64,000 bases of DNA from a virus. The position numbers and the translations under genes were made by a program. Positions 7,939 to 15,437 of the stretch are shown in pieces. How positions within the stretch are numbered: position 1 is the first letter of the stretch; every line of letters begins with the position of its first letter. The DNA is taken from the IMG/VR virus record IMGVR_UViG_3300049491_000083, positions 1 through 64,000 of that record. The stretch is one strand, 5' to 3'. Under the pieces are notes generated by a model. That model did not search any database and was not told the origin of the DNA. It saw only the letters and a program-made list of their open reading frames with translations.

Positions 7939-8199
7939 ATGGAACTATACGATTTCTACGCAGACTGGTGTGGTCCATGTAAGGTCATGGCTCCTATCAT
8001 TGATCAACTTGAGATTGACAGACCAGACATAACCATCGTTCGGATCGACGTGGACGAGCATCGTGAACTGGCAGCAGAGTACCAAATCCAGTCAATACCT
8101 ACTTACATAATGGTAAATCCGGGCAAAGAGGACATAAGAATCACCGGGGCACTCCCCAAGGCACGATTTCTTGCAGAACTAGGGCTTGACACCGCCTGA
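7939..8199 (+). CDS. trxA: Thioredoxin
   Basis: WCGPC active site, SIPT cis-Pro motif; promoter TTGACA-17-TACACT at 7886-7914. Confidence 0.93.
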   Translation: MELYDFYADWCGPCKVMAPIIDQLEIDRPDITIVRIDVDEHRELAAEYQIQSIPTYIMVNPGKEDIRITGALPKARFLAELGLDTA

Positions 8200-8214
8200 A
8201 AATAGTGCTACAAT
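8186..8214 (+). promoter_or_regulatory. Promoter of first tRNA block
   Basis: TTGACA-17 bp-TACAAT. Confidence 0.75.
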
Positions 8215-8998: not shown

Positions 8999-9027
8999 TT
9001 GACAACTACATAGCACTACAGTATCAT
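8999..9027 (+). promoter_or_regulatory. Promoter of the Y-RNA array/Ro60 operon
   Basis: TTGACA-17 bp-TATCAT; predicted start ~9033-9034 coincides with unit 1. Confidence 0.75.
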
Positions 9028-9033
9028 TGAACT

Positions 9034-9106
9034 TAAGCGAGTCGGATTGAATGGGTTATCCTACATATGAGTAAAATATATCCCATCCATAAAGCATATT
9101 CGCTTA
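9034..9106 (+). ncRNA. Y-RNA-like unit 1 (minimal cargo)
   Basis: TAAGCGAGT pairs with ATTCGCTTA; GTCGGATTG; ATGGG/CCCAT inner stem; TTATC. Confidence 0.7.
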
Positions 9107-9114
9107 CAGACTTT

Positions 9115-9252
9115 TGAACGAGTCGATTGTCAACGATAATCTATGGAGAAGCAGGCCAATAGTTCAAAAAGCGCCTGCACAGCACAGTTACACAACCGGG
9201 TAGTTAGCCAACAAAAGGCCAGCCCGTTCGTTGCCTGCAACATATTCGTTCA
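9115..9252 (+). ncRNA. Y-RNA-like unit 2
   Basis: TGAACGAGT/ATTCGTTCA; CAACGA/TCGTTG inner stem; two cargo hairpins. Confidence 0.7.
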
Positions 9253-9261
9253 CAAAACTTA

Positions 9262-9362
9262 ATATGGGTCGAATAGGATCACGGTTATCGCGGTAAGCAG
9301 GGCCAACAAATTCCTGCCTCAGGGTTCAATTCCCTACCCGTTCCTAACTTATACATCCATAT
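9262..9362 (+). ncRNA. Y-RNA-like unit 3 (T-arm cargo)
   Basis: ATATGGGT/ATCCATAT; ACGG/CCGT; AGGG-TTCAATT-CCCT T-arm. Confidence 0.7.
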
Positions 9363-9367
9363 CAGAC

Positions 9368-9475
9368 TTGACGAGCCGGATTGTTTCGGTTATCATTGCC
9401 AAAATTAATGAGGCAAGGTTCGATTCCTTCCTGTACGGGGTGGCCCCCATCCGATTCACAAAGCATGTTCGTCAA
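9368..9475 (+). ncRNA. Y-RNA-like unit 4 (T-arm cargo)
   Basis: TTGACGAGC/GTTCGTCAA (compensatory C-G); TCGG/CCGA; AAGG-TTCGATT-CCTT. Confidence 0.7.
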
Positions 9476-9481
9476 CACAAC

Positions 9482-9619
9482 TTAATACGAGTCGAATTGA
9501 AGTCGATTATCCAATTCAAATGGGGTTATATCGGTTCGAATCCGGTCCCGTCCACCATGGGCGGGTAGTTTAATGGCAAAACACCTAAAATTCGATTTCT
9601 ACTAATATATTCGTGTTAA
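9482..9619 (+). ncRNA. YrlA-like Y RNA, unit 5 (circularly permuted tRNA cargo)
   Basis: TTAATACGAGT/ATTCGTGTTAA; T arm, then acceptor stem closed by ACCAT, then D arm; immediately upstream of Ro60. Confidence 0.85.
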
Positions 9620-9653
9620 CTACAATGCCCCACAGGGGCCGAAAGGAAAGAAA

Positions 9654-11255
9654 ATGTCTACTGCACTAAAGAATGTTTCATTCAAGAACACACAGCAGAC
9701 CGTTCAGGCACGTCCTGATCAGGTTAAGAACTCTGCTGGTGGGTACGTATTCCAGACCGCAGACAAGGATCGCCTAGAGCGCTTCCTGATCATCGGTACT
9801 GACGGCGGTACCTACTACGCATCTGAGTCAAAGATCACCAACGACAACACCAAGTTTATCGTTGAACTGATCCGTTGTAATGAGGATCTTGTTCGGGATA
9901 CCCTTGTTGACGTGTCGGTCAATGGTCGTGCGTACAAGAATTCCCCTGCACTCTTCACCCTTGCCCTGCTTTTCGTAGAGGGCACCAACAAGGCTGCCGC
10001 AAAGGATGCTTTGCAGAAGGTTGCTAGGACTTCAACACATCTTTTTGAGTTCGCTCAGTACATTGAGAACCTTGGTGGCTGGGGACGCGCAAAGCGTTCT
10101 GCCGTTGCCGAGTGGTACACGTCTAAGGAAACTGACAATCTGGCCTACCAGTTCGTCAAGTACCGTCAGCGTGACGGCTGGACTCACCGCGACCTTATGC
10201 GACTGTCTCACCCCGTTGGTATCGAAGCCAACACCGCCAACTTTGCCCTAGGCAAGGATCACGGTATTGCGCCTCGTATCATTAGCGGATTTGAGATTGT
10301 CCAGCAGGCTGAGAATGTCCAGCAGGTTCTCAACGCCCTGTCGTCTTTCAAGGATCTGCCATGGGAAGCAATTCCTACCCAGTTCCTTAAGGACCCCAAG
10401 GTGTGGAAGGCCCTGTTCTACAACGATCAGTTGAAGGGTCAGGCCCTTATCCGTAACATCGTCAGGCTCTCACGCAACGGTGCTTTCAATGACCTTGCGT
10501 TTGCGGCTGACTACGCAGCACGCCTTACCGATGTAGAAATGATCCGTAAGACTCGTCTGCACCCCGTTAACTACCTTAACGCTCTTGTGACATACACAGA
10601 GGGTCAGGTACCACGGGACGGTTGGGGCACTGGTTGGGGATACCGGATTTCCCGCAAGATCGATTGGACCCCTCGTGGGCCTCTCGTGGATGCGCTGAAC
10701 GAAGGCTTCCACCAGTCATTCAAGTTCGTAGAGCCTGCTAACAAGCGGACACTCCTAGGAGTTGACGTGTCAGGTTCTATGGCATCAGCAGCAATGGGCA
10801 CCGACCTGTCGTGTGCACAGGTGGCTGGCGCTATGGCAATGACCATTGCCCGAACTGAGCCTGCCTACGAGATTCGTGGATTCGCGGGTACATTTGTTGA
10901 TCTTGGCATCACCGCCAAGACGGGTCTGTCTGATGCAATGAACAAGGTCCAGAGGGCCAACTTCGGAACTACAGACTGCTCGCTGCCTATGCAGTACGCA
11001 CTTCAAAACAAGTTGGAGATTGATACGTTCGTGGTGATCACGGACAACGAGACTTACGCAGGTAGGCCTCATCCGTATCAGGCTCTTAAGAACTACCGTG
11101 ACAGGACTGGCATCGACGCACGGCTTGCCGTGCTTGGTGTTGCCTCAAACGGGTTCACTATCGCTGATCCCAAGGATCGTGGTATGATGGACTTTGTTGG
11201 ATTTGACAGCAATGCACCCAAGGTGCTTGCAGACTTCTCCGCAGGTAGGCTATAA
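9654..11255 (+). CDS. rsr: Ro60/Rsr TROVE-domain RNA-binding protein
   Basis: NSAGGYVF...RLERFLIIGTDGGTYY, KYRQRDGWTHRDLMRLSH, vWA MIDAS DVSGSM and TDNET. Confidence 0.95.
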   Translation: MSTALKNVSFKNTQQTVQARPDQVKNSAGGYVFQTADKDRLERFLIIGTDGGTYYASESKITNDNTKFIVELIRCNEDLVRDTLVDVSVNGRAYKNSPALFTLALLFVEGTNKAAAKDALQKVARTSTHLFEFAQYIENLGGWGRAKRSAVAEWYTSKETDNLAYQFVKYRQRDGWTHRDLMRLSHPVGIEANTANFALGKDHGIAPRIISGFEIVQQAENVQQVLNALSSFKDLPWEAIPTQFLKDPKVWKALFYNDQLKGQALIRNIVRLSRNGAFNDLAFAADYAARLTDVEMIRKTRLHPVNYLNALVTYTEGQVPRDGWGTGWGYRISRKIDWTPRGPLVDALNEGFHQSFKFVEPANKRTLLGVDVSGSMASAAMGTDLSCAQVAGAMAMTIARTEPAYEIRGFAGTFVDLGITAKTGLSDAMNKVQRANFGTTDCSLPMQYALQNKLEIDTFVVITDNETYAGRPHPYQALKNYRDRTGIDARLAVLGVASNGFTIADPKDRGMMDFVGFDSNAPKVLADFSAGRL

Positions 11256-11608: not shown

Positions 11609-11652
11609 CAACTATTGACAATCCCCCTCTTTTGGAGTATGATAGTCCTAGA

Positions 11653-15118: not shown

Positions 15119-15420
15119 GGGGATGAAAGGTTTCGACCTTGCGGGAAGGTATCAGCAGTACCACAACACAACAATAAATGCAAACACACAAACCGCATTC
15201 GCCCTAGCAGCATGAGGGCCGTGGGGCCACTCCATAGGAACAGAAAGTGGCATGGAAAGATATCCTTTGCATTAATGTAAAGGGTAAGTTACACCGTCGG
15301 GGATATCCCCCGCAAACGCAACAAACACAAATAGTATGACCGTTGGTTGTGCTTTTTGTGGCTACAAAGACGCTGATATTGGAAGGCAATGGGACCGGGG
15401 TTCGATTCCCCGCATCTCCA
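15119..15420 (+). ncRNA. ssrA: tmRNA; tag ANTQTAFALAA
   Basis: GGGGATGAAAGGTTTCGAC 5' end; GGGGTTCGATTCCCCGCATCTCCA 3' end with G3:U; resume codon GCA at 15180 after AAATAAAT; TGA at 15213-15215. Confidence 0.95.
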
Positions 15421-15437
15421 CAACGAAAGGATAGGCA

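What the first reader, a model, noticed from the sequence alone, without database searches (positions are those of the whole stretch)
8999..11255. Ro60 operon led by a tandem array of five Y-RNA-like units with constant handle and variable cargo
Seen: after TTGACA-17-TATCAT come five units (9034-9106, 9115-9252, 9262-9362, 9368-9475, 9482-9619) joined by near-identical linkers (CAGACTT, CAAAACTT, CAGACTT, CACAACTT), then the Ro60 RBS. Each unit has an outer stem whose sequence differs but always pairs (TAAGCGAGT/ATTCGCTTA, TGAACGAGT/ATTCGTTCA, ATATGGGT/ATCCATAT, TTGACGAGC/GTTCGTCAA, TTAATACGAGT/ATTCGTGTTAA), including a T-A to C-G compensatory swap. Each also has a G(T/C)CG core with an unpaired C, a covarying inner stem, and a T(T/A)ATC motif; the inserts (~20-85 nt) are largely unrelated. 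Established: Ro60/Rsr binds a bulged-C helix formed by the Y RNA ends, and bacterial Y RNAs tether Rsr to effectors such as PNPase; characterised loci carry one to a few Y RNAs. Inference: a polycistronic, processed, CRISPR-like repertoire that loads one phage Ro ring with interchangeable RNA modules (adaptors or decoys). I know of no description of such an array in a phage, but could not search.
Basis: partly seen in the sequence, partly recalled or inferred. Interest (0 to 1): 0.92.

Follow-up and report, generated by a model that had tools for sequence, protein, structure and literature searches.

The report
Five-unit Y-RNA array before phage Ro60
An uncultured phage carries five small structured RNA genes in a row in front of its Ro60 gene; they are real relatives of the known bacterial and phage Y RNAs (YrlA/YrlB), and similar rows of two to nine units occur in many related phages, so this extends a known system rather than founding a new one.

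Summary
Five abutting units (9034-9619, + strand) share a Ro60-type "handle": an outer helix, an invariant unpaired C followed by G, an inner helix and a UUAUC motif. They lie between a strong sigma-70-like promoter and a full-length Ro60 gene.

A covariance model built mostly from other phages finds exactly these five sites in the whole 76-kb record. On 77 distinct units, 91% of pair cells are paired, against 67% after shuffling.

The "cargo" is not unrelated:
- Unit 5 is a permuted tRNA-like YrlA module.
- Units 3 and 4 carry T-arms.
- Unit 1 is a short hairpin.
- Unit 2 is unclassified.

The array is not unique:
- The closest relative also has five tandem units.
- Streptomyces phage Gilson has six, Rhodococcus phage Trina about nine and Bixzunavirus mycobacteriophages three.
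- In relatives the units are often interleaved with tRNA genes.
- Orthologous units keep their inserts (79-99% identity), so these are stable paralogous RNA genes, not a CRISPR-like repertoire.

Known precedents are YrlA in phages (Chen 2014), M. smegmatis YrlA and YrlB cut from one precursor, and Thermus phage phiLo Yrl1/Yrl2. I found no paper describing more than two Y RNAs in a phage. This scan has noted comparable arrays on other phage DNA. No expression or binding data exist.

The parts
8999..9027 (+). sigma-70-like promoter TTGACA-17-TATCAT. The predicted start falls at about the first base of unit 1.
   Evidence: 11 of 12 matches. The -10 hexamer ends 6 nt before unit 1. Function is inferred.
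9034..9106 (+). Unit 1: a short hairpin-type Y RNA (YrlB-like), made of the handle plus a ~20-nt apical hairpin
   Evidence: Fold; R2 scores 49.2 bits. It was in the training set.
9115..9252 (+). Unit 2: the handle plus an ~85-nt insert with two hairpins, no canonical T-arm, and a D-arm-like GGGTAGTTA. The module is unclassified.
   Evidence: R2 scores 35.3 bits, E 2.8e-6, and the unit was not in training. Fold. No Rfam hit.
9262..9362 (+). Unit 3: the handle, a stem-loop (GCAGG/CCTGC) and a T-arm at 9321-9335
   Evidence: R1, built with no unit-3 sequence, scores 21.1 bits at E 5e-4. R2 scores 36.6 bits. T-loop motif.
9368..9475 (+). Unit 4: the handle, a stem-loop, a T-arm at 9415-9429 and a small GC hairpin. 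This resembles M. smegmatis YrlB, which is described as carrying a possible T-arm.
   Evidence: R1 scores 28.4 bits at E 8e-6. R2 scores 41.3 bits. T-loop motif. Comparison from PMC4201824.
9482..9619 (+). Unit 5: YrlA-type. The handle replaces the anticodon stem of a circularly permuted tRNA-like domain. Its parts are a T-arm at 9530-9546, the acceptor 3' strand at 9547-9553, A-CCA at 9554-9557, the acceptor 5' strand at 9559-9565 and a D-arm at 9568-9582.
   Evidence: Rfam YrlA RF02553 scores 30.9 bits, E 1e-4, below the gathering score of 69. R2 scores 39.9 bits and the unit was not in training. Sequence read.
9107..9114 (+). Linker CAGACTTT. The other linkers are at 9253-9261, 9363-9367 and 9476-9481. 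All are of the form CA-N-A(A)-CTT and may be processing sites.
   Evidence: AACTT, AGCTT or GACTT also precede units in related phages but do not precede the window's tRNAs. The role is inferred.
9627..9639 (+). GC hairpin (GCCCC-ACA-GGGGC) between unit 5 and the ribosome-binding site. It has no T-run, so it is not a terminator on this strand.
9654..11255 (+). Ro60 / Rsr orthologue, 533 aa, with TROVE and vWA domains and the MIDAS motif DVSGS
   Evidence: Pfam: E 2.8e-61 and 2.6e-34. PDB: 2NVO Rsr at E 3e-101 and 1YVP Xenopus Ro60 at E 1e-94. Translation.

Best explanation
The region is one transcription unit of an uncultured phage related to actinophages. It encodes five paralogous Y RNAs of the bacterial YrlA/YrlB class, followed by their partner protein Ro60.

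Each RNA has the same Ro60-binding handle. The 5' and 3' ends pair, an invariant unpaired C and a G-C pair follow (GNCGRA), then comes a second helix closed by UUAUC. Each RNA carries a different second module:
- unit 5: a full permuted tRNA mimic
- units 3 and 4: partial mimics that keep the T-arm
- unit 1: a plain hairpin
- unit 2: a module of unknown type

Inferred steps:
1. Transcription starts at about 9034 from the promoter at 8999-9027.
2. Host nucleases cut at the short CA..CUU linkers. In unit 5, RNase P probably also cuts at the acceptor stem, as shown for M. smegmatis YrlA.
3. Each released RNA occupies the outer surface of a Ro60 ring. Its module either tethers the ring to a different host factor (PNPase in the characterised cases, or tRNA-handling enzymes) or gates access to the ring's cavity.
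4. The phage thereby makes several differently specialised Ro60 particles during infection.

Shown here: the units exist, share a covarying structure, are homologous to units next to Ro60 in many phages and bacteria, and include a YrlA-type module. Not shown here: transcription, processing, Ro60 binding and the partners.
For: Structure and homology:
- MAFFT plus RNAalifold on 8 short units from 7 loci gives one extended hairpin. Sixteen of its 18 pairs have compensatory changes, and there is an unpaired C.
- Model R1, in which 7 of 8 training sequences come from other phages, finds units 3 and 4.
- Model R2 finds all five units and nothing else in 128 kb or in the 76-kb record.
- Over 42 related loci plus the window, R2 gives 95 hits. 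All are on the Ro60 strand and 94 are upstream of Ro60.
- On 77 distinct units, 91.0% of pair cells are paired against 67.4% after shuffling (0 of 500 shuffles reach this). There are 322 double-change cells against 107, and slid controls give 34-45%.
- C8, G9 and U26/A28/C30 are invariant.

Link to published Y RNAs:
- Unit 5 matches Rfam YrlA at E 1e-4.
- In Mycobacterium phage Essence (genus Bixzunavirus; the paper reported YrlA in mycobacteriophages), the middle of three R2 units coincides with the Rfam YrlA hit.
- The motif fits the GNCGAA(N0-1)G reported as the likely Rsr site (PMC4201824).
- The published M. smegmatis YrlB probe implies UAUC followed by a T-arm, as in unit 4.
- M. smegmatis YrlA and YrlB lie upstream of rsr and are cut from one precursor.
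- Phage phiLo Ro60 binds two upstream Y-like RNAs and host PNPase.

Protein: the Ro60 gene is intact.
Against: - There are no expression data. The only RNA-library contig lies on the Ro60 coding sequence, none lies on the array, and contigs cannot show RNA ends.
- Rfam's YrlA model scores unit 5 well below its gathering score (30.9 against 69), and the other four units not at all.
- Four of the five window units depart from the strict published GNCGAA(N0-1)G motif: CGGA or CGAT in place of CGAA, or 2 nt before the final G.
- Alignment A5 was fitted to the model's structure, which inflates the percentage paired.
- Single-sequence folding z-scores are modest, from -1.1 to -2.3.
Confidence: 0.8

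Rival explanations
1. The five structures act only in cis. They would be a long structured 5' leader of the Ro60 mRNA, for example letting Ro60 bind its own leader to autoregulate translation or stability. They would not be released as separate RNAs.
For: The units lie directly between the promoter and the Ro60 ribosome-binding site, with no terminator-like site on the + strand. No data show processing. An autoregulatory side-role is compatible with everything seen.
Against: - In relatives the same units lie up to ~2.2 kb from Ro60 and are separated from it by tRNA genes and ORFs. In Gilson two CDS lie in between.
- Units also occur downstream of Ro60 in Gordonia phage Forza and in L002.
- They sit 2-3 nt from tRNA genes, whose maturation would release them.
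- The M. smegmatis homologues are released and bound by Rsr (PMC4201824).
Confidence: 0.07
2. The array is a decoy set aimed at the host. The tRNA-like modules would soak up or misdirect host tRNA-targeting defence nucleases, or tRNA-modifying or charging enzymes. Ro60 would serve mainly to stabilise the decoys, not as the effector.
For: - The modules mimic tRNA to graded degrees.
- The units are embedded in large phage tRNA clusters. The window has 33 tRNAs and a tmRNA, and relatives show the same.
- Unit 5 carries acceptor features of tRNA-Ala plus an encoded CCA.
Against: - There is no direct evidence.
- The anticodon arm, the usual target of anticodon nucleases, is exactly the part replaced by the handle.
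- Unit 1 and many units in relatives have no tRNA-like part.
- The characterised Ro60/Y RNA particles act through PNPase (PMC4201824, PMC12135203).
Confidence: 0.08
3. The units are decayed tRNA genes or tRNA-derived repeats left by tRNA-cluster turnover, with no function of their own.
For: T-arm and D-arm fragments are present, and the units neighbour tRNA genes. A published model derives YrlA from dimeric tRNA transcripts (bioRxiv 10.1101/312249).
Against: - The non-tRNA handle is the most conserved part, and it covaries.
- Inserts are conserved between phages.
- Every unit lies on the Ro60 strand near Ro60, and none lies in the window's main tRNA cluster at 21.7-23.3 kb.
Confidence: 0.03

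Closest known systems
YrlA / YrlB Y RNAs of bacteria and mycobacteriophages (Rfam RF02553; Chen et al. 2014, PMC4201824)
   Same: - They are encoded within 4 kb of Ro60 on the same strand.
- They carry a GNCGAA-type motif near the 5' end, within a helix formed by the RNA's two ends.
- Unit 5 has the T-arm, acceptor-like stem and D-arm order of YrlA with a 7-bp acceptor stem, as in M. smegmatis YrlA.
- A second kind of unit has only a T-arm or a plain hairpin, as YrlB does.
- In M. smegmatis two RNAs are cut from one precursor upstream of rsr.
   Different: - There are five units instead of one or two.
- The core is relaxed to GNCGRA.
- An invariant UUAUC closes the inner helix, and I did not find this described.
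- Short conserved CA..CUU linkers join the units.
- CCA is encoded in unit 5, whereas in M. smegmatis it is added after cleavage.
- Unit 2 has no described counterpart.
- The Rfam score is below the gathering threshold.
Thermus phage phiLo Ro60 with Yrl1 and Yrl2 (PMC12135203)
   Same: It is a phage Ro60 with Y-like RNAs directly upstream, recognised by a CGAA motif in a stem-bulge-stem. Binding to the phage Ro60 and to host PNPase was shown in vitro.
   Different: - phiLo has two RNAs, not five.
- The paper reports no tRNA-like modules.
- The phage lineage is very distant.
- I made no sequence comparison with phiLo here.
Deinococcus radiodurans Yrn1/Yrn2 and vertebrate Y RNAs (Y1, Y3, Y4, Y5)
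   Same: - Several paralogous Y RNAs serve one Ro60.
- Ro60 binds a terminal helix with a bulged C.
- A variable second module recruits different partners (from PMC4201824 and bioRxiv 10.1101/312249).
   Different: - In those RNAs both strands of the binding helix are conserved, and the modules differ.
- The vertebrate genes are separate polymerase III units, not one precursor.
- Rfam's Deinococcus_Y_RNA model gives only 15 bits on unit 4.
CRISPR arrays
   Same: Constant and variable parts alternate, the array is probably cut from one precursor, and each product is loaded onto a protein.
   Different: - The variable parts are structured modules conserved between phages, not acquired spacers.
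- There are no identical direct repeats.
- The constant part is a split helix that encloses the variable part.
- There is no guide function.

Membership tests
Ro60 / Rsr protein (TROVE family) | TROVE (HEAT-repeat ring) domain followed by a vWA domain with a MIDAS motif, about 530 aa | tested here: met
   Pfam PF05731 at E 2.6e-34 and PF25045 at E 2.8e-61. Full-length match to 2NVO at E 3e-101 and to 1YVP at E 1e-94. DVSGS is present in the translation.
Y RNA (general) | The 5' and 3' ends pair into a helix that carries a conserved bulged C next to conserved G/C, and this helix is the Ro60 site | tested here: met
   All five units form an outer helix of 8-11 bp. The consensus structure has an unpaired C between helices 1 and 2. 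C8 and G9 are invariant in 77 of 77 distinct units. Covariation is shown.
Y RNA (general) | Physically bound and stabilised by Ro60 | not testable with these tools
   This needs co-immunoprecipitation or gel-shift assays. No protein-RNA predictor was available.
YrlA (Rfam RF02553) | Score at or above Rfam's gathering threshold of 69 bits | tested here: not met
   Unit 5 scores 30.9 bits at E 1e-4, and the other units give no hit. Units in sequenced relatives also score below threshold, at 31-52 bits. The Rfam model therefore under-detects this phage lineage.
YrlA (Chen et al. 2014 criteria) | GNCGAA(N0-1)G near the 5' end | tested here: inconclusive
   No unit fits strictly. Units 3 and 5 have GTCGAA followed by 2 nt before the G. 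Units 1 and 4 have CGGA, and unit 2 has CGAT. Across 77 units position 10 is A in 38 and G in 36, so the lineage motif is GNCGRA.
YrlA (Chen et al. 2014 criteria) | tRNA-like domain with a T-arm, an acceptor-like stem and a D-arm, in that order | tested here: met
   This is met for unit 5 only: T-arm 9530-9546, 7-bp acceptor 9547-9553 with 9559-9565, U8-A9, and D-arm 9568-9582. Units 3 and 4 have a T-arm only. Units 1 and 2 have neither.
YrlA (Chen et al. 2014 criteria) | Within 4 kb of Ro60 on the same strand | tested here: met
   The units lie 35-620 nt upstream of the Ro60 start, on the + strand.
CRISPR-like array | Near-identical direct repeats separating unique, rapidly changing spacers | tested here: not met
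   Handles are only 53-74% identical within the array. Inserts are conserved between related phages at 79-99%.

The most novel reading that the evidence does not exclude
Phage Ro60 loci may encode a multiplexed set of adaptor RNAs, 5 here and up to about 9 in Rhodococcus phage Trina, that re-target one Ro60 ring to several host machines at once. One adaptor (unit 5) would be a two-piece molecule after RNase P cleavage. It carries G3:U70, A73 and an encoded CCA, so alanyl-tRNA synthetase could charge it, which would link Ro60 to the translation or tmRNA pathways. This would be an undescribed activity for any Y RNA.
Probability: 0.1. Interest if true: 0.8.

Novelty: new variant of a known kind. 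Interest (0 to 1): 0.5.

Why it matters
Ro60/Y RNA particles are conserved from bacteria to humans, yet how different Y RNAs specialise one protein is still poorly understood. Phages that pack 3-9 distinct Y RNAs beside Ro60 offer compact, genetically tractable systems for asking what each module recruits. Several of them are cultured: Gilson, Comrade, Trina and the Bxz1-type mycobacteriophages.

Practical points:
- These RNAs are unannotated in GenBank phage records, or are overlapped by small 'hypothetical protein' or 'tRNA-OTHER' calls.
- Rfam's YrlA model misses most of them.
- The handle model built here could correct many actinophage annotations.

Tried and rejected
- MAFFT alignment of the five whole units misaligned unit 3, so I did not use it.
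- The first loose descriptor (a stem plus CGR) gave ~175 hits per strand and was useless. Two intermediate versions were confounded by CGGGTCG overlaps.
- R1 with default filters missed the long units. It needed filters off, and then a retrained model R2.
- Public runs: one 242-nt metatranscriptome contig lies on the Ro60 coding sequence and none lies on the array. The other 'RNA?' runs are probably DNA and mostly match relatives. This gives no evidence for or against expression.
- A blastn search of the array against GenBank phages gave only a 52-nt match to the tRNA-like part of unit 5, in Streptomyces phages Kenrey and Francob. There is no close relative.
- A blastn search of the window's inserts against all other inserts found only T-arm matches, so no orthologues of the individual window units were identified.
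- Pfam on six neighbouring ORFs gave nothing informative.
- The Sim et al. 2020 review (PMC10870794) and the supplementary tables of Chen et al. 2014 are not held. I could not check whether they list several hits per phage.
- The promoter-like match inside unit 4 (9368-9396) arises from handle sequence, and I did not treat it as a promoter.
Full report
**What is there.**
- The window is part of a 76-kb IMG/VR viral record. It is rich in tRNA genes, with 33 tRNAs and a tmRNA.
- Positions 9654-11255 (+) encode a full-length Ro60/Rsr orthologue. It hits Pfam TROVE and vWA_Ro60. It matches D. radiodurans Rsr (2NVO) at E 3e-101 and Xenopus Ro60 (1YVP) at E 1e-94. The MIDAS motif DVSGS is present.
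- Its nearest phage relatives are Streptomyces phages at 56-63% amino-acid identity. Rhodococcus, Gordonia and Mycobacterium phages follow at 40-50%.
- Upstream, after tRNA-Ser and tRNA-Cys, lies a promoter-like TTGACA-17-TATCAT at 8999-9027.

**Check of the observation.**
- Each unit folds on its own with the stated outer helix.
- A descriptor requiring a stem of at least 7 bp flush against CGR, followed by T[AT]ATC, hits 7 times in both strands of the window. Five of those hits are these abutting units.
- I built a covariance model (R1) from eight short units, seven of them from other phages. Without filters it recognised units 3 and 4, which it had never seen, at 21 and 28 bits.
- I retrained on 27 hits to give model R2. 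It finds all five units at 35-49 bits, including units 2 and 5, which were absent from training. It finds nothing else at E<=1 in the 64-kb window on either strand or in the whole record.
- Small corrections: the linkers are 5-9 nt of the form CA-N-A(A)-CTT. The last TT of two of them belongs to the next stem.

**The handle.**
- RNAalifold on a plain MAFFT alignment of short units gives one extended hairpin. It has an outer helix, an unpaired C, a G-C pair and two further helical segments. Sixteen of its 18 pairs show compensatory changes.
- Across 95 hits (77 distinct), 91.0% of pair cells are standard pairs against 67.4% after shuffling. There are 322 double-change cells against 107. Sliding the partners drops pairing to 34-45%. 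That alignment was fitted to the model, so the percentage is somewhat flattering.
- C8, G9 and the U, U, A and C of UUAUC are invariant or nearly so.
- This is the architecture of a Y RNA Ro60-binding site. It overlaps the GNCGAA(N0-1)G motif that Chen et al. proposed as the Rsr contact (PMC4201824). In this lineage the motif is relaxed to GNCGRA.

**The cargo.**
- Unit 5 matches Rfam YrlA at 30.9 bits, E 1e-4, below the gathering score of 69.
- Read directly, unit 5 is a circularly permuted tRNA-like domain. Its parts are a T-arm, a 7-bp acceptor stem, U8-A9 and a D-arm, and the handle stands where the anticodon stem would be. This is the defining YrlA layout.
- The 7-bp acceptor stem is the feature that made M. 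smegmatis YrlA an RNase P substrate.
- Units 3 and 4 carry canonical T-arms only, as reported for M. smegmatis YrlB. Unit 1 is a plain hairpin. Unit 2 has two hairpins and no recognisable T-arm.
- The inserts differ, then, but most are graded tRNA mimics rather than unrelated sequence.

**Relatives.** R2 over 42 Ro60 loci from IMG/VR gave 95 hits. All were on the Ro60 strand and 94 were upstream of Ro60. Unit counts per locus:

| Locus | Units |
|---|---|
| Gilson-like phages (L001, L003, L004, L035; L004 is Streptomyces phage Gilson) | 6 |
| L017/L022 and L020 | 5 |
| L005, L018 (Comrade), L019, L032 | 4 |
| Several other loci | 3 |
| BE-type Streptomyces phages | 2 |
| L055, closest Ro60 found (66% identity), tRNA-rich contig binned with a cyanobacterial MAG | 5 tandem, directly before Ro60 |
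| Rhodococcus phage Trina | about 9 |
| Mycobacterium phage Essence (Bixzunavirus) | 3, the middle one coinciding with the Rfam YrlA hit |
| Gordonia phage Forza | units on both sides of Ro60 |
| Bacterial MAG Rsr loci | 1-3 |

- In relatives the units are often packed 2-3 nt from tRNA genes. This implies release by the tRNA-maturation machinery. It also fits the published idea that YrlA arose from dimeric tRNA transcripts.
- None of these units is annotated in the GenBank records I opened. Some are overlapped by small hypothetical CDS or by a 'tRNA-OTHER' pseudogene call.

**Is it CRISPR-like?** No.
- Between Gilson and three related phages the arrays are syntenic. Orthologous inserts are 79-99% identical, as conserved as the handles.
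- Paralogous inserts within a phage are 19-55% identical.
- These are fixed, distinct RNA genes, analogous to the several Y RNAs of vertebrates or to Yrn1/Yrn2 of Deinococcus. They are not an acquired repertoire.
- The window and L055 both have five units, but these are not one-to-one orthologues, so composition changes over longer distances.

**Mechanism.**
- Shown: the structure, the homology, the linkage to Ro60 and the YrlA-type module.
- Inferred by homology to characterised systems: co-transcription from the promoter at 8999-9027, processing at the linkers and at the unit 5 acceptor stem, binding of each RNA to the phage Ro60, and tethering to host partners such as PNPase. The characterised systems are D. 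radiodurans and Salmonella RYPER, M. smegmatis YrlA/YrlB, and phiLo Ro60 with Yrl1/2 and PNPase.
- The public runs gave no usable expression evidence.

**Novelty.**
- Already published: Y RNAs in phages, two Y RNAs per phage locus, and co-processing of two Y RNAs upstream of rsr.
- I found no paper describing arrays of more than two Y RNAs in a phage, the UUAUC element, or the linker motif.
- Earlier notes of this scan report comparable handle-plus-cargo arrays next to Ro60 or Ro60-like genes in other phage genomes. These are leads, not evidence, but they show that the pattern has been seen before on other DNA.
- I rate this a new variant, an expanded and heterogeneous array, of a known kind.

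Noticed in passing
window 9547-9565 (unit 5 acceptor stem): The acceptor-like stem of unit 5 has G3:U70, A73 and an encoded CCA followed by one U. These are the tRNA-Ala/tmRNA identity features. The orthologous YrlA-type units in L001, L004 and L018 keep G3:U70 and A73 but lack the CCA. L003 has G3:C70. Rfam's permuted-tmRNA model gives a weak 17.8-bit hit here.
   Followed up: partly
L048 (Rhodococcus phage Trina NC_042040) 2176-2384; L047 (Mycobacterium phage Essence) 2131-2470; L046 (Streptomyces phage Gilson) 559-961 and 1669-1887: Y-RNA units in GenBank phage records are unannotated or probably mis-annotated. In Trina a pseudo 'tRNA-OTHER' overlaps two units. In Essence two small hypothetical CDS (genes 229 and 230) overlap three units. 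In Gilson the units fill unannotated gaps between tRNAs.
   Followed up: partly
L055 (CAINGU010000031.1, 'uncultured cyanobacterium' MAG contig, 110 kb): This contig carries Ro60 at 66% identity to the window's protein, five Y-RNA units and 17 tRNA genes within 6.6 kb. It looks like a phage or prophage contig binned into a bacterial MAG.
   Followed up: no
window 9107-9114, 9253-9261, 9363-9369, 9476-9483; units in L003, L004, L018, L020 and BE-type phages: A short AACTT, AGCTT or GACTT motif immediately precedes many units across distant phages but precedes none of the window's tRNAs. It may be a unit-specific processing or 5'-end signal.
   Followed up: partly
window 8186-8214, 8999-9027, 11615-11643: Three near-consensus promoters (TTGACA, a 17-nt spacer, then TACAAT, TATCAT or TATGAT) punctuate the region that holds tRNAs, Y RNAs and Ro60. 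This suggests several short transcription units.
   Followed up: no
L032 2285-2415: Rfam YrlA scores 43 bits directly before Ro60 at a site that model R2 did not detect. R2 therefore undercounts units whose handles are more divergent.
   Followed up: no
window 15119-15423: A phage-encoded tmRNA with the tag ANTQTAFALAA lies 4 kb downstream of Ro60. Gordonia phage Forza likewise has a tmRNA next to Ro60 and its Y-RNA units.
   Followed up: no
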